Assembly (NCBI GenBank): GCA_012862495.1
Contig: BLSG01000182.1
Location: 101,047 to 150,238, forward strand
Origin: Thraustochytrium aureum
Taxonomy: Eukaryota
Direction of reading: 5' to 3'
DNA: 49,192 nucleotides
The notes beneath the pieces were generated by a model, which was not told the origin of the DNA, did not search any database, and worked only from the letters and a program-made list of their open reading frames with translations. The translations under genes were made by a program, and so were the position numbers. Positions 4,524-33,950 of this stretch are shown here, in pieces. How positions within the stretch are numbered: position 1 is the first letter of the stretch; every line of letters starts with the position of its first letter.

Positions 4524-4649
4524 GTGGAAACGGTCTGTGCTCTGGCTTGTGCGGCGACCGTCGCTGCAGCGGCCTGAGGCACTTGCAGCAGCAGCTGGAG
4601 GGAGCTCCAGCGTACTCGGATTGCTTGGGCTCGGAAGGGACGGCTCGGG

Positions 4650-7600
4650 ATGGAGGACGACGGCCGGGAGGAGGCCGTGGAGGTGGAAGCCAAGAATGAG
4701 TCGAGCAGCAGCGGCGGCGGCGGCGGCGGCGGCGGGTCCGCGTCAATATCGATGAGCGCAGCACATGCTGACAAAAGGTTTGCGTGGATGGAAGGCAGGA
4801 TCCACTCCGGGATGAAGCACGTCAAGCTGGACAAACTGAGGAAAAGCCTGCGGAGCGAGGAGAACACGCGCGTCATGAAAGAGTTTTTCACCTCGCCCGA
4901 GTGCAGGTGCCTATTAGTGCTCGGAGACGGCAACTCCGTGCACACGCTCATGCCGAAACAGCTCCCGCGCGGCAAGGCACTCTTCTTCCTCAAGGCAGCA
5001 AGCGTCGAGCTCAGCGAGGACTCCTCGCTGGTCAACGAGCTCGTTTGCGGCGAGCTGTCCCCCGAGCCGCTCGCCCACCTCGAGAAGGTGATCCAGCACG
5101 TCTACATGCCGCTCCTTAGCAGCTCGCCGACCGGCCAAGACGGGTGGGGCGACGTGGCAAGCAAAGAGATTATGGACAAGCTGCACAGCTTCTTGGCGAG
5201 CGTGTCCATCACGCTCGGCCAGACCCAAGGCGAGACCTGCCTTCCGCTCCCCCTCACCGACACCTCCGGCTCGGTCTCGGCGAGCAAGGACAAAATCCAC
5301 CTGCTCGAAGGCGCGGTGATCACCTGGACCAAACAAATCAAAAACGTCCTCAAGCTCGACCCGGAAAACCTCCTGAAAAGCGGGGAAAATCCCACACCCG
5401 AGCAGGAGATTGCCTTCTGGCAAAACAAGGCCGCCAACCTCAACTCGATCTTCAACCAACTGCAGAGCGACCGCGTCCGGCGCGTGCTGCGCATCCTCGA
5501 CACGAGCAAGAGCACATACTGCAACCCGTTTGCCAAGCTCTGCAAGGAGGTCTTCACCGCACGGCTCGAGGCAAACGACAACGTGCGCTACCTGAGCGCC
5601 CTCGAGCCCTGGTTCGCAGAGCTCAACGACCCGCAGGCCGACTTTCCCAGCCTGGTGCGCCTCTTCAAGCCCATCATGCACACCATTCTGCTCATCTGGA
5701 AGAACAGCGAGTACTACAACTCGCCCGCGCGGCTCGTCGTCATGATGCGCGAGATCTGCAACGCGCTCATCTACCAGTCGTGCCGCTACGTGAGCGGCGA
5801 GCAGGTCTTCGAGCTCATCGAGTCGGACGAGGCCGGCCGCGCCGTGGAGCAGCTCAAGACCACCCTCAAGGTCTGCGGCACCTTCAAGTCGACCTATTTT
5901 GACTACAAGGCCACCGCAAACACCGAGTGCCCAAGCAACCCGTGGNNNNNNNNNNNNNNNNNNNNNNNNNNNNNNNNNNNNNNNNNNNNNNNNNNNNNNN
6001 NNNNNNNNNNNNNNNNNNNNNNNNNNNNNNNNNNNNNNNNNNNNNNNNNNNNNNNNNNNNNNNNNNNNNNNNNNNNNNNNNNNNNNNNNNNNNNNNNNNN
6101 NNNNNNNNNNNNNNNNNNNNNNNNNNNNNNNNNNNNNNNNNNNNNNNNNNNNNNNNNNNNNNNNNNNNNNNNNNNNNNNNNNNNNNNNNNNNNNNNNNNN
6201 NNNNNNNNNNNNNNNNNNNNNNNNNNNNNNNNNNNNNNNNNNNNNNNNNNNNNNNNNNNNNNNNNNNNNNNNNNNNNNNNNNNNNNNNNNNNNNNNNNNN
6301 NNNNNNNNNNNNNNNNNNNNNNNNNNNNNNNNNNNNNNNNNNNNNNNNNNNNNNNNNNNNNNNNNNNNNNNNNNNNNNNNNNNNNNNNNNNNNNNNNNNN
6401 NNNNNNNNNNNNNNNNNNNNNNNNNNNNNNNNNNNNNNNNNNNNNNNNNNNAGCACCAGAAGCAGGTCCTCGAGTACGGGGCTTCTCGTACCAGCTGCTG
6501 GAGGTCAATTTCGACCCGCAGCTGATCGCGCTGCTGCGCGAGGTTAAGTACTTCCTCCTCCTCGGCCTCGAAGTGCCCGGCTTTGCGCTCGAGCTCAACA
6601 AGAAGGAGAAAATGTTCCGCAACTGGCGTGGCAAGCTCCAGCTCTGCGTCAACAAGTACAACACCATGATGACGTCCATCCTGCCCGTCGAGTGCCCTTT
6701 GGTCCGCACCCAAGTCGAGAAGATCCACAGCGTGGTCCAGACTGGGCTCGGCATGCTCACCTGGAAGTCGCACGGGATCGACAATTTCATTGAGAAGACC
6801 GAGATGGCCGTCGCGGATGCCGAGACCATGCTCAACGTGCTGAAAAACAACCTCGCCGAGATCGAGGAGATCCTCGACGGCTGGTCCGAGTCCTCCCTGC
6901 TTGACCGGCAGAGCAAGCCCGAGACAGTCAAGGAGTACAACCAGCTGCACGCGACGCGCATGGGTGTGCGGAGCCAGCAGATCGTCGAGGGCGGCAAGTT
7001 GATTCACAAGCTCCTCAAGGAGTCCAACAAGACGCTGCGCATTAGCGCTGGCCACCCCGAGTGGCGCGCCTACGCCGACTTTGTCAACAACGTGGTCGTC
7101 TCAGGCTTGACCAACGTCGTGCAAGTCAGCTTGCTGTGGCTCAACCAGCAGGTCGACCCGGTCATCATCGAGGAGAAGGAGAAGCCGCCCATGCTGCAGG
7201 TCTCCATCAACCTCAACAACAACCAGGTGGCCTTCATCCCCAGCGTGTTTGACGAGGACCGCAAGGGCGTCAAGGCCTCGCTCAGGACCTGGATCGAGGA
7301 CACGCTCAAGGTTGGCGCCCTCATGAAGCGCCTCGACCTCGGCGACGGCACCTACGTGCGCGAGCTGCAGCAGGACATCCTCGTGCAAAGCCACATGGCT
7401 GCCATCTTTGAAAACGTCGCCGCCAACGAAGTCAAGTGCCGCGACTTCCAAAAGCAGTACGAAAAGTACTCGTTTCTCTGGTCCACCGACCTGCAGAGCC
7501 TCTTTGCCGAGTTCATCGCGGGCGCAACCTCCACCTCAGACTCCGGCCTGCGTCGCATCGACCTGGGCCGCTTCGACGAAGAGATGAACCGCCTCAACCA

Positions 7601-10600
7601 GATCAAAGAGGAGGTGGCCTCGCTCAAGACGCCGACAAACATCGGCTGGCTCAAGATCGACTCGACCCCGATCAAGGAGAACATTGTGTACTGGGTGCAA
7701 AAGTGGCTCCACCTCTACACCGGCTACCTGCGCGACGACGTGATCACCAAGCTGCAAAACCTGCGCATCTTCATCATCGAGACGCGCGCCGGCCTCGAGC
7801 GCGAGGTCCAGCCGGGCGACACGGAGACGCTCATGTCCGTCATGGGCAACATCCGCGACGTGCGGTGCCGCATGGAGGACACCATCGAGATGCTCAACCC
7901 CCTCAAGGAAACGGTCAACCTGCTCAAGCTCCACCGCGTCGACATCGAGGACGAGGTGCTCTTCGGTCCGCCGCTTGGCGGCTCCTCTGCCGCTGCCGAC
8001 GCCGCTTCGTCGAGGGCAGGCCGCGCCGGCAGCCAAGTCGACGTGCTCGGCGCCGCGGATGCAGCCTCAACGCCGCGCAAGCTGAACGAGGCGGACAAAG
8101 AGCCCCTCCTCGAGTTTCTTGACGCGGCGGGGCTCAAGTGGGACTCGCTCGTAAATTTCACGTTTCGCGTCAAGGAGCAGATCATGCCCATGCAAAACCA
8201 AGAGGTCGAGTACATCAACTCGAGCCTGCACAAGTTCAAGGCCTCTGTGGAGGAGTTCAGGTCGCTCTTCAAGGATGAGAAGAAGGGCGCCCCGTTCTCG
8301 TTTCGCGGCTCCACAGATGAAGCCTATTCGAACATTGCCAAGTTCCAGACCCTTTACGAGGAGAAAAAGGAGCGCGCCAAAGAGCTGAACGCGCTCGAAG
8401 AGCTCTTCGAGCTGCAGATCTCAAAGTACCGCATCCTGGCCCAAACAGAGATGGAGCTTCGCATCTTGAAAAACCTCTGGGACTTCAAGGCCATGCAGCT
8501 CGCCACGTACGAGTCCTGGAACGCAATCCAGTGGAAGGCGATCAACACCGACGAGCTCGAGCGGGTCAACACGCAGCTCTCCAGGGAGCTCAAGGCTCTC
8601 GGCGCCAAGGACGCAGTCTGCCGCGGATGGCGCGTGTATCAAGACATCGAGCAGTCCTGCAAGGACATGGCCATCGTCCTTCCGCTCATCTCCGAGCTGC
8701 ATTCGCCAGCGATGCGCGCGCGCCACTGGAAGGCGATTGCGGCGGCGTGCAAGGTCAACTCGATTGCCTGGAACGCAGAGAGCTTCAACTTTGCATCTGT
8801 GCTCCAGCTGGAACTGCAAAAGCACGCCATCGACGTGTCCGAGCAGGTCGAAACGGCCGTCAAGGAGCTCAAGATCGAGAAGAAGCTCGAGGTCATTGAG
8901 TCGCGCTGGGAAACGTTGCGCCTCGACTTTGTCGACGCGCAGGGCACGCCCGCGCCTGGTCAGGACATGCAGGACGAAAACGCAGAGGCGCTTCGGGCAA
9001 CGGCAGTAGAGTCTGGCGTGGTCTTCTTGCCCCGCCGTCCGACGAAGTCGTCGAAAACCTCGAGACGGACCAGATGGAGCTGCAGAGCATGATCGGCATG
9101 GGCAAGTTCGTCAAGTACTTCAAGGAGCGGGTGAGCAAGTGGTTGCACACCCTAAGCGACATCGAGGCCAACCTGAAGGACTGGCTCAACGTGAGCAAGC
9201 AGTGGTGCTCGCTTGAGTCCATCTATCTTGGCAGCGCGGACATCCGCAACCGTCTCCCGGAGGACACCAAGCGCTTCGAGGCAATCGACCAAGAGTTCAA
9301 AGAGGTCGAGGCGCGCGCCTACAGCGACAGCCCCCTCGTCGTGCATCGCTGCACCGAGGAGGGCCTCGCTGCGGTCCTCAAGCGCATGCTCGTCGACCTC
9401 GCAAAGTGCCAAAAGTCGCTCAACGAGTACCTCGACACCAAGAAGAAGGTGTACCCGCGATTCTACTTTGTCAGCAATGTGGCGCTTCTCGACATCCTCT
9501 CCAACGGCAACTCGCCGAAGCGCGTGATCCCCTACCTGCCAGACTGCTACGATGCCCTCAGCGACCTCGTCTTCAAGGACGCCGACGCGGAAAACCCGCA
9601 CATTGGAACCGCGATGATCGCCTCCGACGGGGAAACGATCCCGTTCCCGCACGCCTTCGAGATGAGCGGCCCGGTCGAGAACTGGCTCAACCGTCTCACC
9701 GACATTCAAGTCCTTACCCTCAAGACGGTGCTGCGCTCGGCCATTGACACCGCCGTCACCTGGGAGCACGAAAAGCCGCGCCACGAATGGCTCTTCGACT
9801 ACCCGGCCCAGGTCGTGTTGCAAGCCACCCAGGTGTTTTGGACCGAGGAGACAGAGTCGGCGCTCGAGGATTTGGAAGGCGGGAACGAGGAGGCCCTCAA
9901 GCTGTACCTGGAAAAGTGCAACGATCGCCTCAACAAGCTCATTCAGCTCGTTGAGCGCAAGCTCTCCAACTCGGACAGGTGCAAGGTCATTACGCTCATT
10001 ACCATGGACGTCCATTCGCGCGACGTCGTGCAGCGCCTGATCGACGAAAAGGCGGACGGTCCGTCTTCGTTCCTCTGGCAGCAGCAACTGCGCAACTACT
10101 GGAAGACGGCCAACCCAAACATGGAGACCGACATCCGCATCTGCGACTTCAAGACCAAGTACTCGTACGAGTACGTCGGAAACTGCGGCCGCCTCGTCAT
10201 CACGCCTCTCACCGACCGCTGCTACATCACCCTCACGACCGCGATGCGCCTCATGTTGGGTGGCGCACCCGCCGGCCCTGCAGGGACTGGCAAGACCGAG
10301 ACCACCAAAGACCTCGCGCGCGCACTGGCGCTGCAGTGCTACGTCTTTAATTGCAGCGACCAGATGAACTACCAAACGCTGGGCGATATCTTCAAGGGCC
10401 TGAGCCAGACCGGGGCGTGGGGCTGCTTTGACGAATTCAACCGCATCCCCATCGAGGTCCTCAGCGTGGTGGCCACCCAGGTCAAGACTGTCCTCGACGC
10501 CGTGGTTCACTTTGCGGAGCCCGCCAACCGCCCGGAGGAGCTCCGTGCTGCTGCGGGCGACCTCGGCGACACCCCAGGAACGCCTCCCTGCAAGGTGGGC

Positions 10601-13600
10601 TACTTTGACTTTTTCGGCGACGAGCTCTGCCTCGTGCCCACGACTGGGTTCTTCATCACCATGAACCCGGGCTACGCCGGCCGGACCGAGCTCCCCGAAA
10701 ACCTCAAAGCCCTCTTCCGCTCGTGCGCCATGATCCGTCCGGACCTGGCTCTGATTTGCGAAAACATGCTCATGTCCGAAGGCTTTCAGAAGGCGCGCTC
10801 CCTGTCGATCAAGTTTGTTACGCTTTACCAGCTCAGCTCTGAGCTCCTATCGCCGCAGGCCCACTACGACTGGGGTCTGCGCGCCGTCAAGTCTGTGCTC
10901 CGGGTGGCGGGCATGCTCAAGCGCACCAACCCGGAGATGGAGGAGGAGCCCGTCCTCATGCGCGCGCTTCGCGACTTTAACACGCCCAAAATCCCAGCCC
11001 AGGACATGGACATCTTTTTGCGCCTCATCGCGGACCTGTTCCCAAAGTACGCCGAGACGACGCCGAAGGTGATCAACGAAGACCTCAAGCGCGTCGCCAA
11101 GGCCGTGTGCGCACAGGAGCGCCCCCCGCTCCAGTCGGACCCCGGGTTCGTCTCCAAGGTTATCCAGTTCCAGGAGCTGCTTGACGTGCGCCACTCCGTG
11201 ATGCTCATCGGCTGCGCTGGCGCCGGCAAAACGACCGTGTGGCGCACTCTGCAGGGCTGCCACAACTACATGGGCCGCCTGCGCACCGGCTCGGACAAGA
11301 AGGTTGCGATTGCCGAGACGATCAACCCCAAGGCGGTAACCTCGGACGAGCTCTACGGGTTCATGAGCCTCAGCAAGGACTGGAAGGACGGCGTGCTGTC
11401 CATCATCATGCGCGGCATGAGCAAAAACTACCGCGACCTCGGCTACCACGCGTACCAAACGAGCAAGTGGGTGGTCTTGGACGGCGATATCGACGCGGTC
11501 TGGATCGAGTCGATGAACACCGTCATGGACGACAACAAGGTGCTCACTCTGGTCAGCAACGAGCGCATCCCGCTCAGCGACCCGATGCGCATGGTTTTCG
11601 AGATCAACTCGCTCAAGAATGCCACGCCGGCCACTGTGTCTCGGGCAGGCATTCTCTACATCAACGAGCACGACATCGGCTGGCGCCCGCACGTCGAGTC
11701 CTGGGTTGCTGGTCTCCCAGACGAGACCGCGCGCGAACTCATCCCGCGCTATTTCGACAAGTACATCGAAACCATCGTCGAATTCATGCGCCGCGACAAG
11801 CTCGAGTCGATCGTGCCCGTGTACACAATCAGCTGCATCCAAACCGTGTGCAGCCTGCTTCGAGCTCAGCTTGCGATTTGGGAACGCATCAAGACCGGCG
11901 GTGGCGAGGCAGGGCCAGGCGGCGTCGCTGGCGCCACGTCGCAGGCCCCAGCCACTACGAGCCAGCTTCAAACCCTCCTCGAGCAGCTCTTTGCGTTCTC
12001 GTGCGTTTGGGCTTTTGGGTCGGGCCTCGTCGACGACAAGGGCTGCATGGCCCGCAAGCTCTTCAGCTCGGCCTTCTGCCAAGCGTTTCCTGGGGTCATT
12101 CCCGTTGAGGAGGGGAACACGGTGTTCGACTACTTTGTCGACGTGTCCGGGGCCCAGCGCGAGCAGCCTGAAGAAGCGTGGCGGCACTGGCGCGAGCGCG
12201 TGGAGGAGTTTGTGCCCACGCTGATCGGCGGCCAAAACGGGCAGACGCCGTTCTCGGCCCTGTACGTCGACACGGTCGACAATGTCCGCATCTCTCACCT
12301 TTTGGATTCGCTCGTCGCGCAAGAGAAGCCCGTTATGCTAGTCGGCGGCGCGGGCACGGGCAAGACGATGATGGCCCAGAACTGGATGCGCGAAGTGGTG
12401 CAAAACAACGAGAGCATGCTGAGCACGCACATCGCCATGAACTACTTTACCGACTCGGCTGCGTTCCAGAAGCAGATCGAGGGAGCCATAGACAAGCGCT
12501 CGGGCCACCGCTTTGGGCCTGCAGGCAACAAGCGGCTCGTGTACTTTGTGGACGACCTCAACCTGCCCTACGTGGAAAACTACGGGACGCAGAACGCGCT
12601 CTCGCTCCTGCGCCAGATCATGGGCTACGGGACCTTTTTCGACCGCAACGACCTCGGATTCCGCAAGGAGATCGTCGACGTTCGCTTCGTCGCGGCGATG
12701 AACCCGTACGCCGGCAGCTTCAACATCTGCGAGCGGATCCAGCGCTACTTTACTGCCATTGCTTGCGCGATGCCCAGCGACGAAGACCTCAGCAGCATCT
12801 TCGTCTCGATCCTCGATGGCCACCTGCAAAGCTTTCCCGCTCCAGTTGAGGCCCTGCTCCACCCGCTTGTCCAAGGCACCATCGCGCTGCACAACCGCGT
12901 TGCGGAAAAGTTTTTGCCCTCCGCGGTGAAGTTTGTGTACAACTGGAACATGCGCGAGTACGCCAACGTATTCCAGGGCATATGCCGCTCGGACCCCAGC
13001 TCGACCAAGACGCCACTCGACATGTGCCGACTCTGGGTGCACGAGTGCCGCCGCGTGTTCGGGGACCGCCTCATCGACGCGACGGACATTTCCAGGTTCC
13101 AAGACATCCTCTTTGACGTGTCCAAGACGTTCGCCCTCGAGGATATCGACAAGCTGCACGAAGAGCCGATCGTTTTCACGTCCTTTCACGACTCGGACGG
13201 CGCGGACGGGCACTACACGGGCGTGACAAACTTTGGGCACCTGACGCGCTTGCTCGACACCAAGCTCGAGGAGTACAACGAAACGTACGCGGTGATGAAC
13301 CTCGTGCTTTTCAAGGACGCGGTCAAGCACGTTTCGCGCATCGCGCGGATCATCCAGAACAACGGGGGCAGCGCGCTCCTGATCGGGGTGGGCGGGTCTG
13401 GCAAGCAGAGTCTTTCGCGCCTCGCTGCGTTCATCAACGGCTTTCAGATCAAGCAGCTCAAGGTCACCAGCGACTTTACCACGCAAAACTTGCTGGAGCA
13501 GCTCCAGGAGCTCTTCAAGACGACCGGGATCAAGGGCATTCCTACGGCCTGGATTATCAATGACGCGCAGATCATCAACGAGGAGTTCCTCGTGTACATC

Positions 13601-22482: not shown

Positions 22483-25400
22483 GTCGAGACGCTCGGCCTT
22501 TGCGGACAACAGGCGGCAACACGACGCTTGAGTTCAACTCTAGTGACGCGCTGCTGCTAGCTAAGGCAAAGGCCGAGGTGACTTGCGTCCTTGGCCGCGC
22601 GCGAAGGTCCCTAGTCGAGGTTCCCAGGCGCTTGGATGCTTTCGACGCTTTTTGCGCATCTCTCCCCCCCAATTCTTGGTGTACTTTTGGGATTGGCTTG
22701 GCCGTGGAGTATCGATTGACGACATCGTCACTTTCCTGAAGGTGGAGATCAAGCTTCGCATCTTTCGTGTGTCGGCCACCAAGGTTTTCAAAGCACCCTA
22801 CAAAAGTGAAGGTATGGGTCCTGATGTTGAGCTCGCATACTGGCGGGTGCGCCAACTCATGCGCCGCGCGGACCAACCGTACAGTGAAAGGCCTCCTGCG
22901 GAAGGCCGAAGCAGCAATCCAGCTTTTTCTGTTGATCCGGCCATGACTCGGCTCGAGAAGACCTGCCGTGAGCACTGGACTTCGATCTTCTTCGTCTCAG
23001 GCGTCACCTGGGTCGACCTCGACGACGACAAGCTGCCCTTCGCTTCACCAGCTTGGGATCTTTATGGTGTACGGCGAATCACAACCCGTGAAAAGAAGAA
23101 CAAGCCCGTCATTCACCTGGTTGCCAGCGTTTGCACAGGACTCCTCTGTGCTGGCTATCTGGAGAAGCAAAAGTCCAAGCAAGCGGCGATCGTCGACCAG
23201 GCAATCAAAGACCTCATCGGGAACGAGCCGAGCATGGACCCTGAGGCCGCTGCCTCCCTAGTCATGTTCATCGATCGTGGCTACATCGGGCTCAGCAAGC
23301 CGAAGAGGCCCACTGCATCATCGTCGGAAGAAAACCAGACGAGTGTCGTCAGCGTGATTCAAAAGCATCGTGTTGGCCTCCTCGGCACGTGTAAAGACAC
23401 GTCGTCATTCCCGATACGGCAGACAGAGAGGGCGAGGAGCAACAAGCCGGCTCTTGGACGCAGGGACATCTCCATCTTCGGGACAAGGACGAACTTTCGT
23501 GCCTTCCACCGTGCGTCCGGAATCTTGGCCAGCTCCATGCGGCACGGACAAGGTCGGGCGCGTGCCTCTCGCATCGTGACAAACGTGCGCGACCTCCAGC
23601 GCGACGTCTGGGTTTACGAGACTCGAAATGGGAGCGTTGTCGGAGGCAACAAGGTCAAGCGCCAACCCCACCCTCCGGAGCTTTCTGTTGCGCAAACCTC
23701 AGTTGGCTCAGAGCCCAGCACGGCTATTGATGGCCACGGAGTCGAACATACCCCTCCGTCGTCGCCTCCTGTGGCTCTCGGAGACCCTGGACGTTCGGGA
23801 GACGTGAACGCGGAGGCTAGCTTTGGTGAAATGGGAGGGCGTTTGTTCGCTCTTACTCTTGAGCAACGCACCCCGGACTGGTTCCTGTCCCGTTCCTTTC
23901 GCCTGACCAGCTCAACGGCGGAGATTGCCATAAACTGCAAGGATGCCTGCTACCTCACCAAGGCTATGCGCGCTGGTCATCGGGAGGTTCTGAGCATTGC
24001 ACAGCTCACACCTCTCCGAGTGATTACCTTGGAGTCCGCGGCCGCCCGCCGACAGCCTCGCAGTTCCATCGCAGCCTGTGCCATCAAAACACGTTCCGCT
24101 GGCCACAGGCGAGTCGCGTTTGCAGCGGGGGCGTGCACCTGATCCGCGGAAGAAAGGCTTCTGGCTGAAGAAAGACAAAGCTGAGCTTTTGCGAAGGTGC
24201 CGCGAGCTGGGCCTCACCGTGGATTCGCGGAAAAGCAAGGTGGCCCTTGCAGCCGCTATTGCGGAACACCACAAGCATCGACCTGCGCCGGCACTAGATA
24301 GCGCCGACGACCTTCTTTCTTCAGTGGAATCGGAGGCCATCAATGTTGAGCGCCCTGGTGGCAGCCACTCTCGACGCTCAGGGTGAGCACTCTTGAAGAC
24401 TCATCATCGGACAGCGACGTGAGCATGGAGGAAACAGTCACAGGCACAGGGCTAAACGAGTCCGGGGGCCTTGGGCGGCCTGCGAAGCGGCGTCGCGCGG
24501 TCGGTTACTGTACCGGAGCCGCCATCTCTTCATCCACTATACTGCGCCGCGTTGCAGCAACCGCCTCGGGATCCAGTGACAGCGACGACAGCATTCTAGA
24601 GCTCGAGGCTGACGCTGAAGCCGACAACGCCTCTGACGAGAATGCGACACGCCGGCACGAAGGGAGTGAGAACCGCCAGAACCGTGCTGGCGTGCGGAAT
24701 CTGCGAAACGCCTTTCGTAACGCCAACGACCCTAACGACCCTCTCAAATGCTTGAGTCGTGGCCAGTCTGATTTGCCCTTTGTGGATCGCCAGGTGGGCT
24801 TTCTCCGCGTCATGGTGAAGAAGTGGTTCATGACGCCGTTTGAGAGCAAAGCTCCTAAAGCAAAATCGCCTTTGGCGATCGGATCTGCGACTGAGGCCAT
24901 CATCCAGCGCGGCCTCCCAGCTTTCCTTGCGACACAGTCGCAGGGAGAGCTTGAGATTCTCGAGACAAGGTCCTTCGGCCTTCTCTGTCGCCGCGACTGC
25001 CCCTTTGTTGCGGATTCGCCCGACGGCGTCGCGTTGGTGATCCGGAGAACCTCGAGCGGAGAGTTCCTCTCGTCGCACCTGGCCGCCCTCGAATTCAAAA
25101 CCGCGTCAACAACATCTACTGAGGAGGATCTGCTAGTAGGCGTTGCCAACGCCAAGCCATTCGTGTCGTGCACCTCCGGGACGGCCGAGTTCAAAGCCAT
25201 GGTTCCGCGATTCTTTTCGTGTCCAGCTCATCCACCATGCTGCCGCGCTTGGAGTGGACACAGTCCTTCTTGTCAGGGCCACCAGGACGGACATCGTGCA
25301 GGTAGTCGTCGTAACCGTCGGAAAGGCTCACCGGGACGCCTATGTCAGCTTTCTCCAGTCGCTTGCCAACGAGTACATGGACTTCGCTTATGGCACTGTG

Positions 25401-26526
25401 GTCAAGAGCATGCCAAGGCTTGGACAAGACGGCACCTCCGTGTATGGCTATGCTGTTGAGCACCACACCCTCGAGCTGCAGCTTCGCCTGTGGCGTGCCC
25501 ACAATGACGACGTTATCATGCATGGCACCCCGCCGCCTTGCACCCGACTTCTACCGTTGAAGAACTCGGTGTGGAACCACTTCATGGGCAACTGTGACGT
25601 CGCACGGGGCTGCATCAACTCGTCTGGGGCAGTTTACGCTGGCCTCAACCCCTTCTCGCTCATCTGGTCCACAATGTTGAGCTACATTCTGTACAACACT
25701 TGGCGCCTCTTGCAACTACAGGGCGTGGAGGACCAGATGGACGACTTGGAAGCTTATGGCGACTTTCAAAAAGCCCGGTGCAAGTCCATGACTTTTGAGG
25801 AGGCATTGTCGCTCGTGCTAAACAAGCTTGCCGCCTGCACGCTCGTCCAGCAGCATCCCGAGCTGCAACGCATTGTAGCAGCTCGGCCTCAGCTGGGTGT
25901 CCCGTCTGAGCGCCTGCCTTCGCCAGCGCAGGTCGCGAGCGACCCCAAAGGGCCAACAACGACGTTCAAGACCAACCTGCTCGTGAAGGCAAACACCGAC
26001 GCAACGCTAATCGCGTTTCGCACCGACGGGGCGCCACTGCACGCACTCGTCAAGGATCCCGGCGGTCGCAAACGCTGCCAGGTCTGCTGTGCAAAGTGCA
26101 ACCCTCGAAATGGCGAAACAAAGCCGCACACCTATCGCGCTGGCGCAATTGTCACGACGATGTGCATGGCATGTCGTGTCCATCCTTTGCCGTGAACGGT
26201 GCTTCACGGAGTGGCACGCAAACCCACGAATTCCATACCCGGCATGCATGTTGCGCAAGAGCAAGGACGTTTCCTCCATCTCCACCAGCGCCTGCAGGAA
26301 CTTGGCGGCCCTCCAAGTCATCAGTCCAACCCATGCAGCGTCGAGCTCGAGTTCTGACCACAGATCTCCTGACTCGGCGTTGACACCTCAAAGCGCGCCG
26401 AATCCTCACTCCCAAGATCGGCCTGCGGGCCCCACGCGCTCGCGGCGGAAAAGGGCGATCATGGTCATCCCGTCCGGCGCGGCAGCGACCAACAACTCCC
26501 ACCCAGCTCAGGCGTTCGCAACGTAA
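22483..26526 (+). CDS. piggyBac-like DDD transposase with an inserted YqaJ/lambda-exonuclease domain, a SAP-like motif and a C-terminal Cys-rich domain; ~5 frameshifts; 5' end at or before the gap (possible ATG at ~22151)
   Basis: Transposase motifs: VDLDDDKLPF (23021), IHLVASVCTG, MFIDRGY (23273), LLGT, WNHFMGNCD (25572-25598), ILYNTWRL. YqaJ motifs: EQRTPDWFLSRSFRLTSS (23861), IGSATE, GLL...PFVADSPDG (25022), LEFKT (25091), VQLIHH. C-terminus RCQVC...TTMCMACRVHLCRERCFTEWH. Pieced from ORFs 22500, 22583, 24078, 24383, 25143 and 26089. Confidence 0.8.
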
Positions 26527-26807
26527 CATGTTCCTATCAGAACGATGCCGAACAAAAGAATATGTTCGTCTGGACTCTCACCTTGCTCCTATGTGAGCGC
26601 AACAAACTTGCGTTCCGCAAATGTCAAGCTCGTTGTTCATCACGGGACCGCATACCGCGACGCCCAGACATGCAAGGAAGGGCCGGCAAGCTCTCAAACT
26701 CCTCTCTACAGCACCCTGTAGCGGCTCCGCGAACTGGAGAGACTGGCGTGTCAGTCTTCCTGCCAAACGACCATGCTCAAGACGGCTCAAATTAGTTGCA
26801 TTTTTAG

Positions 26808-27025
26808 CGACCCTCAAGAGGAACAAAAGAACACGACCCTCAAGAGGAACAAAAGAACAAGACCCCAAGAGGAACAAAAAGAACACGACCCCAAGAGCAA
26901 AACGATCACAAGGAACAGAACGAACAAGCCCTCAAGAGGAACAAAAGAACACGACCTCAAGAGGAACAAAACGAGCACGAGGAACAAAAGGAACAAGACC
27001 CAGGAGGAACAGAACGAACAAGACT
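26808..27025 (+). repeat. Tandem array of a 26-bp unit CGACCCTCAAGAGGAACAAAAGAACA, decaying rightwards (~8 units)
   Basis: Units start at 26808, 26834 and 26860 (period 26); later copies are degenerate but keep the AGGAACAAAA core. Confidence 0.9.
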
Positions 27026-29005: not shown

Positions 29006-32000
29006 TTATTGGATGGCGCACAAGCGCGACGCGTGGCGCTGCGAGTTGTGATTCAACGGCGAGCCGGGCTGCTCTTTCTTGATGCCGTCTTTGCGCGGCG
29101 GAGCCACCGACTCGAGTTTCGCCTCAATCCGGTCAACGCACTTTTGGAACATGTCCCAAAAGGCTTCCGCAAAGTTGTCGCTGCTTGACGCGTCGTTGCG
29201 AAACCCAAACACCCCTTTGCTGGGATCGAGCTTGCTACTCTTTATCTCCTCGCTGGCCCGCTTGCTTGTGTGTTCCCTGTCCGAGTCGCTTCTTGCGAAA
29301 CCCGAACCCTCTGAGTGGGTTTCCAGCTCGTCAAGGTCGTCGCGGAGGAACGCCTTGGTTGAAGGCAGCACCTGAGTAGACGAAATGCGGGGGAGCACGA
29401 GCTTAGAGGGGCGCGACTGTGGCTCGTTCTCGTCCTCGGAACCAACCTCCTGCCGAAGCTTGAGGGTGTGCCGGAAAGCGTTGATCATCATCCGCATGGT
29501 TCGCGGCTTGACCTTGCCGGACTCTACATACAAGAGCGCCTCTTCCAAGATGACCTTGCACTCGCTGAAAGCGCCGTTTGTGATGGATTGCATGATTGAC
29601 CCCACAGCATAGTCCATGGCTTGTCGTACTCGCTTGCCCGCGTGAGGTGGAACATAAGCGTCACATTGTGCTTGCGCAAGTCGTCTTGATACCGCTGAGC
29701 GAACCAGTTCGCGACTTGCTTGTGATACATGATCTGATCGGCGCGCAGAAGCAGGTCGTAGCAGGTCTGCTGAAGCTTGGAGTGAACGAACTCGTATGAT
29801 TGCGATGCGTTGGCGAGCTGTGCCCTTTGCTCACCTCGCGGGGAGTCTTTAGCAGGGCCAAGTTCTGCCCGCGCTTGGTTGTCGTGACGACCTGCCCGGA
29901 GAAACTCGGCCTTGACGAGATCGCCAAGAATCGCCTGGAGCTGCGTGGTCCCGTCTTTTTGCAGCCGCAAAAACGACCGAGGCACAACCTCCAAAAGCGT
30001 TTCGTACAGAAACTCAACGCCGATCACGCTCGCCGCCTTGAGGCAGCGCTGCTCTGCGTTGCTGAGGCTGTCAATACGTGTCATAAATGCCTTGGTCACG
30101 GCATCTTCCTGGCTCGGCTTCGTCGGGCTCATGACGTCGGCCGTGGATACAGCTGATTGCGAGAACGAAGCGGTGCTCTCCCGCGAGGATCGCCGCATCC
30201 CGCGGGCAACCTCTACGGCCACAAAGGGGTGGCCCGATGACAGCTTGAAGATTCGAAGCATATCGGCCTGAGACCACACTTCCTGCGGAAATACGCGCTC
30301 TACCAGACGCTCAACGTCCCGAAGGCAAAGACGGCTAAGGCGAATCGTCTGAATGTCACCACTGCCACCCGGGAGCTCCTGGACGGACACTTTGATTTGA
30401 AGTGATTTGTGGTCCGTTTTCCCGGCCTTGCCATTGAAGGAAAACGCCCGCTCGCCGCTGCTCGCCAGCGAACCCTTGAACCCGGGGGTTTTGGCTTGAG
30501 ATTTCGCCGTGCAGAGCAAGAGCATCGAAGTCGTTGGGCTCATAATGACGCGCACCAGCACCTCCCAGCTGCACGAGTCCATGTAGTGGACGTCGTCAAA
30601 GGCGGCCACAAAGTTGGCGTTCAACGCGTTGCGCAAGGTGGGCGCGAGAAACAGCCGCAACATGACAGTCTTGATCAGCTGCGGGGAGTCCTGACCGTGG
30701 CCCTGGCCACCGCGGAGGACGTCCGATGGCGCCCACCCAGCAATATTCCAGTCACCGAGCTTGAGCACAGATGCCTTGATTTCGGGTAGCGCAGCAAGCT
30801 CCTCGGCGGAAAGGTCCGACTCCCACTCCTCCATAATTTTGGTGACGCCTCTCTGGTCGAACACGCCCCCCCCGTGCGTGAATAGCTCTGCGCACAGCCG
30901 GGAAATCGCACTGTAGGCCTCGTACGTGTCCTCAGGCCGTAGCTTGACTCGCGCAACTTGGAGACCTTTACTGCGGGCCAGGCCAAGTGCGCTGGTCAGG
31001 AATGTGGTCTTTCCGCCACCTTCGTCGCCCTTGATCAAGAGCACTGTTCCGCCGGGATTGTTGAAAAGTCGTGTCTGCGGAGTCTCCGCGACTCCGCCCG
31101 CGACCTTGACTACCTCTTCGTTGGGGGGCACCTTTGCATGGGCTACGCCGCCCCCGGAAACATTCCGCCCTACCAGGTTCAAGCTGGCAGCCTCTTCCGA
31201 GGAAACGAAAATGGTGAGGTCATCGGGCTCACTGGGGACTGAGATGGCGCATGTTGTGGACCTTCTCAACAGGGAAGGTCTTTGCACGGGCGCAGCAGCA
31301 GGCTTGGGCTTCTTGGAGGTGAAGCTCGAGGACGACGCGCCGCGGATCAAATCTTGCGTCTCGCGAGGTGTTGAAATGCCAGACATCTCCCCAAACGCTC
31401 GGAGTATACTCGACATCCGCCGCGTTGCGACGCGGCTGTTCAGCATGGCCTTGACGTACTTTAGCTCGGCCTCAAAGCCAATACAGGGTTTGGAATCCTT
31501 TTCGTTGACGTGCAATGTGTCCCGTGAGCGCGAGGGAATTACTCGGAAGGCTTTGACGTTGCGCTTGCCTTTGAGCTTGACGTTCGAAAAAGCCTCAAAC
31601 TCAAAAATCGTGCTGGCACCCTGATGAGTTGATTCGTCGCAGACGACTGCAAACACAGGTGTGCCATCCGCATCCGAGTCGTGGCGCATCCCGGACTCCT
31701 TCACGGGATCGTCACGACTTTGCCTGGCGCGATCCTCCGCTGCAGAGGCTGACAGAGCGTTCCGTGATGCGTTCATTTCATAGGACGACTTGCTTTCGGA
31801 GCTCACCTTGCTCTCGATCCGTTCGCTGATCTCATCGACGCCGTCGTATTCAGGACCGAGGCTCGCGTGCTCTGGTCTCGGCTTGATGTCTGTGTTGTTA
31901 ACGTTCTGGGACGCTGTTGGGGGCGTAGATTTGTGACTGCCGCCAAAGGTCTTCCACGCAAAAGACATGAGCCTCGCTGACAGGTTGACCGAATCGCCCA

Positions 32001-33548
32001 CCAAAGCGTACTCGCGCCGCACCCGGCTGCCAACGACGCCGATGTATGCCGTCCCGGTTGTAACCCCCGCAAACGCGCGGACCCCGAATTTGCTTACCCC
32101 TTGCGCAAAGCCTATTGCGAGTTTGAGGCCTCGGATTCGATCGTCCATGTGCACGCACTTCGGGACCCCCAGAGCGAAAATCAGAACCATGCCCTTGTCA
32201 TCGACGAGGAACTGGCGGAGCATAGCATTATTCTCATGTGTGCAGCGCTGCGCCACTGCAACAATATCCTCGACAAGTGGAAGCATCGTGCCACTCTCAT
32301 CCGCCAAGGCCGACTCAATGCGAGGGCCGTCTAGCTTGACAAACACCACCGTCACCTCGCGGATCTCGGCCTCTACGGAAACGTGAGGCGTTGGCGAGTC
32401 GAGGTCGAGCTCGGGCGGCGGGGGCACAAAGGCCAACGCCTTGCAGGCAATCCCGCGCACCGAGGGGTGTGTGAAAACCGTTTCGTCGTCTTGAGCCTGC
32501 AGCTGGCCCTGCGCCGATCTCGATCGTGCAGCTGACTGCGCCTCCAATCCCGCGGCGAGCAGGTCGTCCACGGAGGCCTCGCAACGCGAAGTCCTAATAT
32601 CGGTAACACGGCGAAAGCCCGGCAGGTTTGGGATCTCGGTTGTCTCTGCTAGACCTTGGAGGACATCGATGGTGCTTGGTGCTGCGACGAGCTGTTGGGC
32701 AGAGGCTGCGGTGACCGCATCTCCGAGCTCCTTGAAGAGCGGGCTCATCGCCAAGAGCTGGAACTCCATCTTGTGCCCGCCCGCCACGTACATGTTGAGT
32801 ACGCCAGACGCAACGCCCAATGGAGGTTGAGCTTTTCGCTGCCGAAACGGGGCCGAGCAGCCGCAAGCTCGAGCCCGCACCTAACGCAAGCCGCAGCGTT
32901 GAGCCGCATGCGAAGCTTGATTTCGATGTTGTCCTCCTCGTACAACCGCGAGCCGGAAATAGCAGACCGCAGGTATTTCGCGCACAGCCTGCTCTCGGTT
33001 GTATTGTCTCGTGCCAGGCCTCGCACGGCGTCGGCCACGTCTCGTGTGGGGGTCAGAGAGAACCAGGATATGATCAAAGCGTCGCCCGCGAAGTTGAGGA
33101 TGTCTCCACCAAACCGCGTGATAATATCGATGAGCTCAGAGAAGCAGTCGTTGATGCCTTTGCTGAGTTTATCGAGCCCTTCGACACCCTCGGCGCACAG
33201 CTTCTCTGACACTTTGCAGAAACCGGAAACGTCGGCGAGCATCAGGCTGCAGTGCGCTTTGTGAACAGACGCCCATACCGAGTGATCGAGAAGGAGGGAC
33301 TCGCTTGGGTCCACGCCTTCTTTGATTGAAGCAGCTTTCAAGCGCTCTTGCTCAATCGTGAGGACCTGCCGCAGGGCTGCTGGGGTGTAGGCCATTACGT
33401 CGCGGGCTAACGATTCTGGGAGTTCTTCCGCGTAGCGCGAGTTCAGCTCGCCTATTCTTTCCACGTAAGCCCCCAAGTTATCATCGTCCACCAAGCCGAT
33501 GCTCGACATCCTGTTCGGCAATGCTTTGGGGCTCAGCGCTCCATCCAT
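29006..33548 (-). CDS. ADCY10: Soluble adenylyl cyclase-like protein (two class III cyclase domains plus a STAND P-loop NTPase); frameshifts at ~32822 and ~29612
   Basis: C1: LMLADVSGFCKVSE...FGGDILNFAGDALI. C2: AEIREVTVVFV...QFLVDDKG...AGVTTG...RREYALVGDSVNLSARLM. Walker A GDEGGGKT, Walker B FDDVHYMD, SSGHPF, LKAASVIGVEF, YEFVHSKLQQTCYDLL. Confidence 0.88.
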
Positions 33549-33950
33549 CTTGCCGAGCGCCTCCTCGCGCTGCCGCGACCCCACTGGGCCCTGGCCGCTC
33601 CCGCGGCCCAGGCCCTTCCCCTGGCGAGCCCTACTCCGCCAAGCGCCACCGCCAGGCGGCCGCAGTCCGAGCCGGCCGCCAGCCCCGTCACCACGCCCGA
33701 CCTACCCACGCTCCACGCGCTCCAGGCGAGCGCCTTCGCGAGCTGCGCGCAGCTCCTGCTGCTCCTGCAGCAACGAGCNNNNNNNNNNNNNNNNNNNNNN
33801 NNNNNNNNNNNNNNNNNNNNNNNNNNNNNNNNNNNNNNNNNNNNNNNNNNNNNNNNNNNNNNNNNNNNNNNNNNNNNNNNNNNNNNNNNNNNNNNNNNNN
33901 NNNNNNNNNNNNNNNNNNNNCGATGGCTGCTGCGCTACGTTGACTGCGTT

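What the first reader, a model, noticed from the sequence alone, without database searches (positions are those of the whole stretch)
22483..26526. piggyBac-like transposase with a whole YqaJ/lambda-exonuclease domain inserted inside its DDD catalytic core
Seen, in collinear order: D1 (LDDDK, 23021), D2 (IDRGY, 23273), GT, then YqaJ motifs (QRTPDWF..R..RLTSS; G..TE; GL..PFVADSPDG; EFK; Q..HH), then D3 (WNHFMGNCD, 25596), YNTWRL and a C-terminal Zn-binding domain. Established: these patterns correspond to DDE_Tnp_1_7 (iDE, Dnyft, GT, YN..MGGVD, Na..ly) and to PD-(D/E)xK YqaJ nucleases; ISL2EU elements carry YqaJ as a separate ORF. Here both active sites look intact in one chain of roughly 1,350-1,450 aa. 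Inference: a transposase coupled to 5'-3' resection or annealing, implying a non-standard excision, repair or targeting mechanism. It may relate to divergent groups such as Repbase piggyBacX; I cannot verify how far it is already described.
Basis: partly seen in the sequence, partly recalled or inferred. Interest (0 to 1): 0.9.

Follow-up and report, generated by a model that had tools for sequence, protein, structure and literature searches.

The report
piggyBac transposase with built-in exonuclease
This is a frameshifted copy of a piggyBac-type jumping gene whose cutting enzyme carries a second, lambda-exonuclease-like domain inside its catalytic core; the design is conserved intact in dozens of related proteins from diverse protists, and the extra domain likely chews back the DNA ends left after the element jumps.

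Summary
Window 22485-26526 encodes one piggyBac-like DDD transposase (D1 23021, D2 23273, D3 25596) with a lambda-exonuclease/YqaJ-like domain and a SAP-like motif between D2 and D3. It lies in six stop-free segments split by five frameshifts; the host dynein gene also has two, so some may be assembly errors. It is not a nested insertion: 43 of 51 non-redundant homologues of 900 aa or more (named ones: diatoms, Plasmodiophora, Chromosphaera) keep both active sites in one ORF, and the two domain trees are congruent. A homologue's AlphaFold model matches piggyBac (Z 24.3, residues 85-1047) with lambda exonuclease nested inside (Z 12, residues 454-928), inserted just after the retained insertion domain. 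One relative has CC...GG inverted repeats and an ATAT duplication; no ends were found in the window. Likely role (inferred, about 50%): resecting the donor-site ends after excision, which would divert seamless closure into homologous repair that restores a copy. I found no description in ten literature searches, but it may be Repbase/Dfam PiggyBac-X, and exonuclease-bearing Dada, KolobokE and ISL2EU elements are precedents. This scan found the family four times before on other DNA. Verdict: new variant of a known kind.

The parts
22293..22482 (.). Assembly gap (N run) that probably hides the start codon and acidic N-terminus
   Evidence: the family profile is first matched at position 56 of 1089, at nt 22509
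22485..22661 (+). Segment 1: start of the piggyBac-type helical dimerisation/DNA-binding domain; first frameshift near 22660, at a C run
   Evidence: iE 1.6e-5
22649..23623 (+). Transposase N-half: helical domain, RNase H core with D1 (23021) and D2 (23273), GT motif and beta-stranded insertion domain
   Evidence: 247 bits; the model of this window stretch aligns to piggyBac 6x67 residues 135-437, Z 14.4, rmsd 3.1, 257 aligned
23813..24013 (+). N-terminal lobe of the lambda-exonuclease-like domain (QRTPDWF..R..RLTSS; predicted 5'-phosphate pocket)
   Evidence: iE 1e-17; family profile positions 439-481 match LHK-Exo 3syy residues 2-39, E 0.003
24135..24359 (+). SAP-like DNA-binding motif, in its own frame between two compensating frameshifts
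   Evidence: weak in the window (SAP_new25 E 0.016; iE 0.025); PF02037 above its cut-off in 7 of 43 homologues scanned
24389..24787 (+). Acidic, low-complexity linker, longer than in most homologues
   Evidence: the equivalent region has pLDDT under 50 in the P0002 model
24788..25517 (+). PD-(D/E)xK exonuclease core: E 24893, D 25022, E-x-K 25091/25097, QxxH 25224; frameshift near 25208
   Evidence: 109 + 108 bits; homologue model residues 454-928 match lambda exonuclease, Z 12.0-12.3, rmsd 3.7-4.0, about 205 aligned
25533..25826 (+). Resumed transposase core with D3 (25596) and the second half of the helical domain
   Evidence: 66 bits; the family profile aligns to piggyBac 433-506
26040..26526 (+). 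C-terminal cysteine-rich Zn-binding domain (frameshift near 26184) and tail to the stop codon
   Evidence: all 7 tested Cys/His present in the window copy and in 47-50 of 51 homologues; sub-threshold PF13842 hits in 3 of 43 homologues

Best explanation
This is a frameshifted copy of a piggyBac-type transposase gene in which a lambda-exonuclease-like domain and a SAP-like motif sit between the second and third catalytic aspartates, and the extra nuclease likely resects the donor-site DNA ends after the element is cut out. Shown: the architecture, its conservation in one ORF across distant protists, and the retention of both sets of catalytic residues. [quoted passage not shown] Inferred: the DDD site excises through hairpins and integrates with a 4-bp stagger (ATAT in one relative). 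That chemistry would leave 5'-phosphorylated 4-nt overhangs on the donor flanks, the kind of end lambda-type exonucleases attack 5' to 3'. Removing them would block seamless re-ligation and push repair into homologous gap repair from a sister chromatid, restoring the element at the old site and so raising copy number.
For: Architecture: 43 of 51 non-redundant proteins of 900 aa or more keep D1, D2, D3 and D..E-x-K; D2-D3 spacing has median 586 aa (range 488-834) against 101 in piggyBac (D346/D447 from PMC7351741). The window copy has all 22 key residues tested. AF2 of P0002 gives pLDDT 85, pTM 0.80. VIA: piggyBac 6x67 Z 24.3, rmsd 3.7, 374 aligned, model 85-1047; lambda exonuclease Z 12.0-12.3, model 454-928. 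The window's own N-half aligns to piggyBac up to residue 437, so the insertion domain (372-433) is kept. Co-inheritance: 19 of 43 splits are shared between the domain trees (shuffled mean 0.2, max 3 of 500), and there is no conflict among the 14 and 15 splits with support of 0.95 or more. Mobility: L004 is an internally deleted copy with perfect 10-bp CC...GG inverted repeats flanked by ATAT, and L001 ends in GG|ATAT beside subterminal inverted repeats. Exonuclease rather than endonuclease type: the N-terminal Q..W..R..T-S motif is conserved (Q 50, W 51, R 49 of 51), and the best structural matches are lambda exonuclease, LHK-Exo and mimivirus R354. The two members that lost E-x-K (P0022, P0026) also have degraded transposase motifs.
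Against: There are no biochemical or expression data, and no excision site was examined. The opened hairpin on the transposon ends would also carry a 5' overhang, so the substrate is not fixed by the anatomy. Lambda exonuclease is a toroidal trimer (PDB title) whereas piggyBac is a dimer, so processive resection may not carry over. Target-site evidence rests on one complete relative and one single end; L005 showed no such ends. No termini were found in the window, so this copy may be immobile. Frameshift density in the element (5 in 4.0 kb) exceeds that of dynein (2 in 14.2 kb; P about 0.007), so real decay is possible. Pfam YqaJ was below its cut-off in all 43 homologues scanned.
Confidence: 0.5

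Rival explanations
1. The PD-(D/E)xK domain works on the transposon ends themselves. It cuts or trims the non-transferred strand, as TnsA does for TnsB in Tn7 (recalled), replacing or cleaning up the hairpin step.
For: It sits in the same chain, next to the insertion domain that contacts the hairpin in piggyBac. Both sites are co-conserved. The family lacks the fourth Asp (D450 equivalent) that follows D3 in piggyBac, hinting at altered excision chemistry. A 4-bp duplication would still form.
Against: The nearest folds are end-dependent exonucleases with the N-terminal pocket motif, not TnsA-type endonucleases. A processive exonuclease on the element's own ends would risk destroying the inverted repeats.
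Confidence: 0.27
2. The nuclease acts on the target side. It resects target or broken chromosome ends so that the element integrates by annealing or at pre-existing breaks.
For: The insertion domain lines the target channel. YqaJ-type enzymes partner annealing proteins in phage recombination (PDB 6m9k title).
Against: L004 has a clean 4-bp duplication and exact inverted repeats, as expected for ordinary DDD strand transfer. No annealing-protein partner was found; the upstream ORF has no homologues.
Confidence: 0.1
3. The nuclease has a side role not tied to the transposition chemistry, such as degrading excised or competing DNA intermediates or limiting the element's own activity.
For: Accessory nucleases of several kinds occur in Kolobok and Dada elements, with only proposed roles (PMC9587614, PMC3706591).
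Against: Its position inside the catalytic core and its retention in 49 of 51 long members suggest tight coupling.
Confidence: 0.11
4. The YqaJ part is a separate nested insertion, or the fusion is an artefact of reading across frameshifts.
For: The window copy is broken into six segments, and Pfam finds neither domain in it.
Against: Dozens of single-ORF homologues have the same order. L001 has a 1,248-codon open frame covering the whole profile. The domain trees are congruent.
Confidence: 0.02

Closest known systems
Trichoplusia ni piggyBac and Myotis piggyBat transposases (PDB 6x67/6x68, 9c0f; Pfam PF13843, PF13842)
   Same: DDD triad in an RNase H fold, helical dimerisation/DNA-binding domain, beta insertion domain and C-terminal Cys-rich domain (Z 24.3 and 20.3); CC...GG termini and a 4-bp duplication in a relative.
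   Different: About 490 extra residues (exonuclease, SAP, linker) between the insertion domain and the D3 helix; ATAT rather than TTAA in the one complete relative; 12-14% identity; no D450 equivalent.
Lambda exonuclease / YqaJ family (PDB 1avq, 3sm4, 3syy; mimivirus R354 5yeu; Pfam PF09588)
   Same: PD-(D/E)xK core and N-terminal Q..W..R..T-S motif; Z 11-12 over about 200 residues.
   Different: Embedded in a transposase and split by a SAP motif and linker; below the Pfam cut-off; oligomeric state and activity untested.
KolobokE and ISL2EU DNA transposons
   Same: A DDE-type transposase together with a lambda-exonuclease/YqaJ-like nuclease (PMC9587614 and PMC4122938, passages read).
   Different: Different transposase superfamilies. 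The nuclease lies downstream of the transposase domain (KolobokE) or in a separate ORF (ISL2EU), not inside the triad; termini and duplications differ (RR..YY with TTAA; 2-bp AT).
Dada transposons of Laccaria and Ectocarpus
   Same: An exonuclease inserted after the second catalytic Asp, inside the transposase core (PMC3706591, passage read).
   Different: A DEDDy 3'-to-5' exonuclease in a transposase of the hAT/MuDR/Kolobok (C/DxxH) group.
Repbase/Dfam 'PiggyBac-X' class
   Same: The label occurs in a Plasmodiophora brassicae repeat annotation (bioRxiv 10.1101/2025.07.30.667784, one passage), and that species encodes a member of this family.

Membership tests
piggyBac superfamily | RNase H-like core with three Asp equivalent to D268, D346, D447 | tested here: met
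   profile alignments to piggyBat/piggyBac at all three Asp regions; Z 24.3; residues present in the window
piggyBac superfamily | Helical dimerisation/DNA-binding domain and beta-stranded insertion domain | tested here: met
   homologue model covers 6x67 residues 117-517; window N-half model covers 135-437
piggyBac superfamily | C-terminal cysteine-rich Zn-binding domain | tested here: met
   7 Cys/His conserved in 47-50 of 51; aligned to the piggyBat C-terminus
piggyBac superfamily | Terminal inverted repeats starting with C(C/A/T), about 12-19 bp | tested here: inconclusive
   10-bp CC...GG repeat in relative L004; none above chance in the window, which has a gap at the left end
canonical piggyBac (TTAA-specific) | TTAA target-site duplication | tested here: not met
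   ATAT in L004 and at the one end seen in L001; no TTAA between 20300 and 28573 in the sequenced part of the window. ATAT is listed as a rare piggyBac site in PMC5381638
canonical piggyBac (TTAA-specific) | Compact core, about 100 residues from D2 to D3; PF13843 above its cut-off | tested here: not met
   median 586 residues; PF13843 absent in the window and above cut-off in 2 of 43 homologues
lambda exonuclease / YqaJ | PD-(D/E)xK catalytic residues and N-terminal phosphate-pocket motif | tested here: met
   D 51, E 49, K 49, W 51, R 49 of 51; hit to 3syy. The role of the motif as a phosphate pocket is recalled
lambda exonuclease / YqaJ | Lambda-exonuclease fold | tested here: met
   Z 12.0-12.3, rmsd 3.7-4.0, 201-208 aligned of about 226, on a predicted model of a homologue
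lambda exonuclease / YqaJ | PF09588 above gathering threshold | tested here: not met
   best 17.2 bits against cut-off 22; 4 of 43 homologues have sub-threshold hits
lambda exonuclease / YqaJ | 5'-to-3' exonuclease activity; toroidal trimer | not testable with these tools
   needs biochemistry
KolobokE / ISL2EU | [quoted passage not shown] | tested here: not met
   the nuclease lies between D2 and D3 of a piggyBac-fold transposase
Repbase/Dfam PiggyBac-X | Sequence membership in the Repbase/Dfam class | not testable with these tools
   no Repbase or Dfam library at hand; only a label in one preprint

The most novel reading that the evidence does not exclude
An undescribed, ancient lineage of two-active-site transposases spread across stramenopiles, rhizarians and unicellular opisthokonts. 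It converts piggyBac-type cut-and-paste into effectively replicative transposition by resecting its own donor break with a built-in 5'-to-3' exonuclease: a natural integrase-resectase fusion with ATAT specificity.
Probability: 0.3. Interest if true: 0.85.

Novelty: new variant of a known kind. Interest (0 to 1): 0.62.

Why it matters
Several eukaryotic DNA transposon lineages (ISL2EU, KolobokE, KolobokD, Dada) have independently acquired exonucleases, and in the passages I read their role is only proposed. Here the nuclease is built into a transposase whose relatives have solved structures and a defined chemistry, and intact single-ORF copies with short ends exist. The question 'what do transposon exonucleases do?' therefore becomes testable with two point mutants. 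If the nuclease steers repair of the donor break, it would explain how a seamless-excision element gains copies. It also shows that the piggyBac insertion-domain junction tolerates a cargo of about 500 residues, and points to an ATAT-targeting piggyBac relative, both relevant to transposase engineering.

Tried and rejected
Pfam on eight window ORFs: no transposase or YqaJ hit. Searches for the element's ends in the window (inverted repeats, any 4-bp duplication, ATAT|CC and GG|ATAT, CC...GG) gave only chance-level matches of 8-12 bp with no duplication; the left end may lie in or beyond the N gap. No relatives were confirmed in viral contigs (0 of 488 pattern matches) or prokaryotic genomes (0 of 222); these scans use patterns from one subfamily and do not exclude distant members. 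The upstream 789-aa ORF as a partner gene: no homologues, no Atlas hit, not seen beside relatives; not assigned to the element. No host genome is held and no reads could be examined, so copy number, expression and whether the frameshifts are real stay open. Absence of in-frame stops does not settle this (P of none 0.04-0.45 under decay). Literature: ten full-text searches found no description of this architecture. The review most likely to define piggyBacX/piggyBacA is not in the library, Repbase Reports are not searchable, and no supplements were opened. No complex prediction was run, because a dimer exceeds the size limit.
Full report
Observation. They lie on the + strand in six stop-free segments between 22485 and 26523, separated by five frameshifts. 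The N-terminus disappears into an N gap at 22293-22482. Pfam alone recognises neither domain in the window ORFs. The locus sits between a dynein heavy-chain gene with an orphan 789-aa ORF on the left and an HVA22-family gene on the right, so the host is a eukaryote; no genome is held.

One protein, not a nest. A search with the D1-D2 ORF against longer proteins returned three single-chain proteins of 1,163-1,350 aa at 30-34% identity, each carrying all the motifs in the same order. A profile of these three found 12 more-or-less close proteins in the 90% library and 1,467 at E up to 0.001 in the 50% library, 733 at 1e-10, of which only the best 150 were listed. From everything fetched I took the 61 proteins of 900 aa or more and dropped 10 cluster duplicates. 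Of the remaining 51, 43 keep D1, D2, D3 and D..E-x-K. Three of the eight misses are partial or gapped, three differ at one Asp column, and two (P0022, P0026) have lost E-x-K and have degraded transposase motifs. The D2-D3 distance has a median of 586 residues. Named members come from Skeletonema, Thalassiosira, Mediolabrus, Phytophthora (partial), Plasmodiophora and Chromosphaera; most are unnamed. The ESM Atlas nearest cluster is an all-eukaryotic 'hypothetical protein' of 56 members (score 0.98). FastTree trees of the spliced transposase part (407 columns) and the nuclease part (267 columns) for 46 proteins (five partial or misaligned ones left out) share 19 of 43 splits (shuffled mean 0.2, max 3 of 500). 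They show no conflict among well-supported splits, with Spearman 0.65 for path distances, so the two parts have been inherited as a unit. The window copy, read through with X at the breaks, has all 22 key residues tested and falls in the clade that includes the diatom proteins, next to P0016.

What the domains are. A 73-sequence profile hits piggyBat (E 3.5e-9) and piggyBac (2e-6) in two stretches on either side of a gap. Within that gap it hits LHK exonuclease, mimivirus R354 and SAP domains of Ku70, Tho1 and others. In 43 homologues scanned, PF13843 passed its cut-off in 2, SAP in 7, and PF09588 in none (4 sub-threshold hits). AlphaFold2 on P0002 gave pLDDT 85 and pTM 0.80. Foldseek ranks piggyBac, Tn5 and piggyBat first, then lambda exonuclease. 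VIA-align gives piggyBac Z 24.3 (rmsd 3.7, 374 aligned, model 85-1047, chain 117-517) and lambda exonuclease Z 12.0-12.3 (rmsd 3.7-4.0, model 454-928). A model of the window's own 22649-24100 stretch aligns residues 1-324 to piggyBac 135-437 (Z 14.4, rmsd 3.1, 257 aligned). The core resumes at the equivalent of piggyBac P433. Since the piggyBac insertion domain is 372-433 (PMC7351741, passages read), the nuclease is added at the C-terminal end of an intact insertion domain, directly before the helix bearing D3. I could not measure distances between the three Asp in the model; their convergence is implied by the superposition. In the viral fold library the best hits are separate transposases and separate YqaJ exonucleases, none fused.

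Is it a transposon? No ends were found in the window. Among six metagenomic loci, L004 is a 3.83-kb copy that lacks the nuclease and D3 (profile 435-942 missing). It is bounded by perfect 10-bp CC...GG inverted repeats, an ATAT duplication and subterminal inverted repeats. L001 has a 1,248-codon open frame and ends in GG|ATAT beside subterminal repeats; L005 showed no such ends, and the other three loci are partial. So the family is mobile with piggyBac-like ends, on thin sampling. Whether this copy is intact cannot be told. The host dynein gene is itself frameshifted twice inside Pfam domains, and two other host genes show frame switches, so the assembly carries indel errors. But the element's rate is higher than dynein's (P about 0.007), and the lack of stop codons is not decisive.

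Mechanism. Established for piggyBac: a nick at the 3' end, hairpin formation four bases into the flank, hairpin opening, strand transfer, and complementary 4-nt overhangs at the donor site that allow seamless repair. The insertion domain lines the channel that holds hairpin or target DNA. Recalled for lambda exonuclease: 5'-to-3' digestion from 5'-phosphorylated ends. Inference: the embedded nuclease is placed where the donor flank leaves the active site and would erode its 5' overhang. This prevents simple re-ligation and favours gap repair from a sister chromatid that still has the element, a net gain of one copy (0.5). The main rival is action on the element's own non-transferred strand, in the manner of Tn7 TnsA (0.27). 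Target-side resection (0.1) fits the clean duplication in L004 poorly; a side role (0.11) and artefact (0.02) follow.

Comparison with what is known. It works like piggyBac and meets the structural definition of the superfamily, but it fails the canonical TTAA and compact-core features. [quoted passage not shown] A survey of 157 piggyBac-like elements excluded sequences with long insertions and lists ATAT only as a rare site (PMC5381638, passages). PMC5718144 (passages) and PMC8097293 (passages) did not bear on it. Ten searches found no description of this arrangement. However, the label 'DNA/PiggyBac-X' appears in a P. brassicae preprint (one passage), that species encodes a member, and Repbase, Dfam and the relevant review were out of reach. 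I put the chance that the family is already catalogued there at about one in two; that estimate is partly from recall. The scan's own notes hold four earlier findings of the same architecture in other genomes, none by sequence similarity to this copy or in this genome. My reading was formed before seeing them, and they are not independent evidence.

Verdict. A real, conserved and structurally well-supported two-nuclease transposase: a new variant of a known kind, with an untested but directly testable mechanism. Interest 0.62.

Noticed in passing
window 19562-21931 (+): Orphan 789-aa ORF directly upstream, with a Cys-rich N-terminus and coiled-coil C-terminus and GC3 0.57 against 0.72-0.84 in host genes; no homologues, no Atlas hit. 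Could be foreign or element cargo.
   Followed up: partly
window 4578-18813 (+): Dynein heavy-chain gene with two frameshifts inside Pfam domains (near 9030 and 17272), showing indel errors in the assembly.
   Followed up: yes
window 26788-27023: Array of about 26-nt A-rich direct repeats just right of the transposase; a 12-bp inverted match lies at 19120-19131 (E 0.08). Possibly subterminal repeats, not shown.
   Followed up: partly
window 22001-22025: Perfect 10-bp-stem hairpin between the orphan ORF and the gap; role unknown.
   Followed up: no
window 29006-33701 (-): Large adenylate/guanylate-cyclase plus AAA-ATPase (STAND-like) gene with apparent frame breaks near 29700 and 32820.
   Followed up: no
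L004:116-3941: Internally deleted family member with intact ends and an ATAT duplication that has lost the nuclease and D3; the contig starts and ends with the same 39 bases.
   Followed up: partly
P0022, P0026/P0175: Full-length members that have lost the nuclease E-x-K and have degraded transposase motifs; candidates for host-domesticated copies.
   Followed up: no
P0009 C-terminus: About 300 extra residues after the Zn domain, with a GDGNCG...H pattern that recalls an OTU-type protease (label from memory, seen).
   Followed up: no
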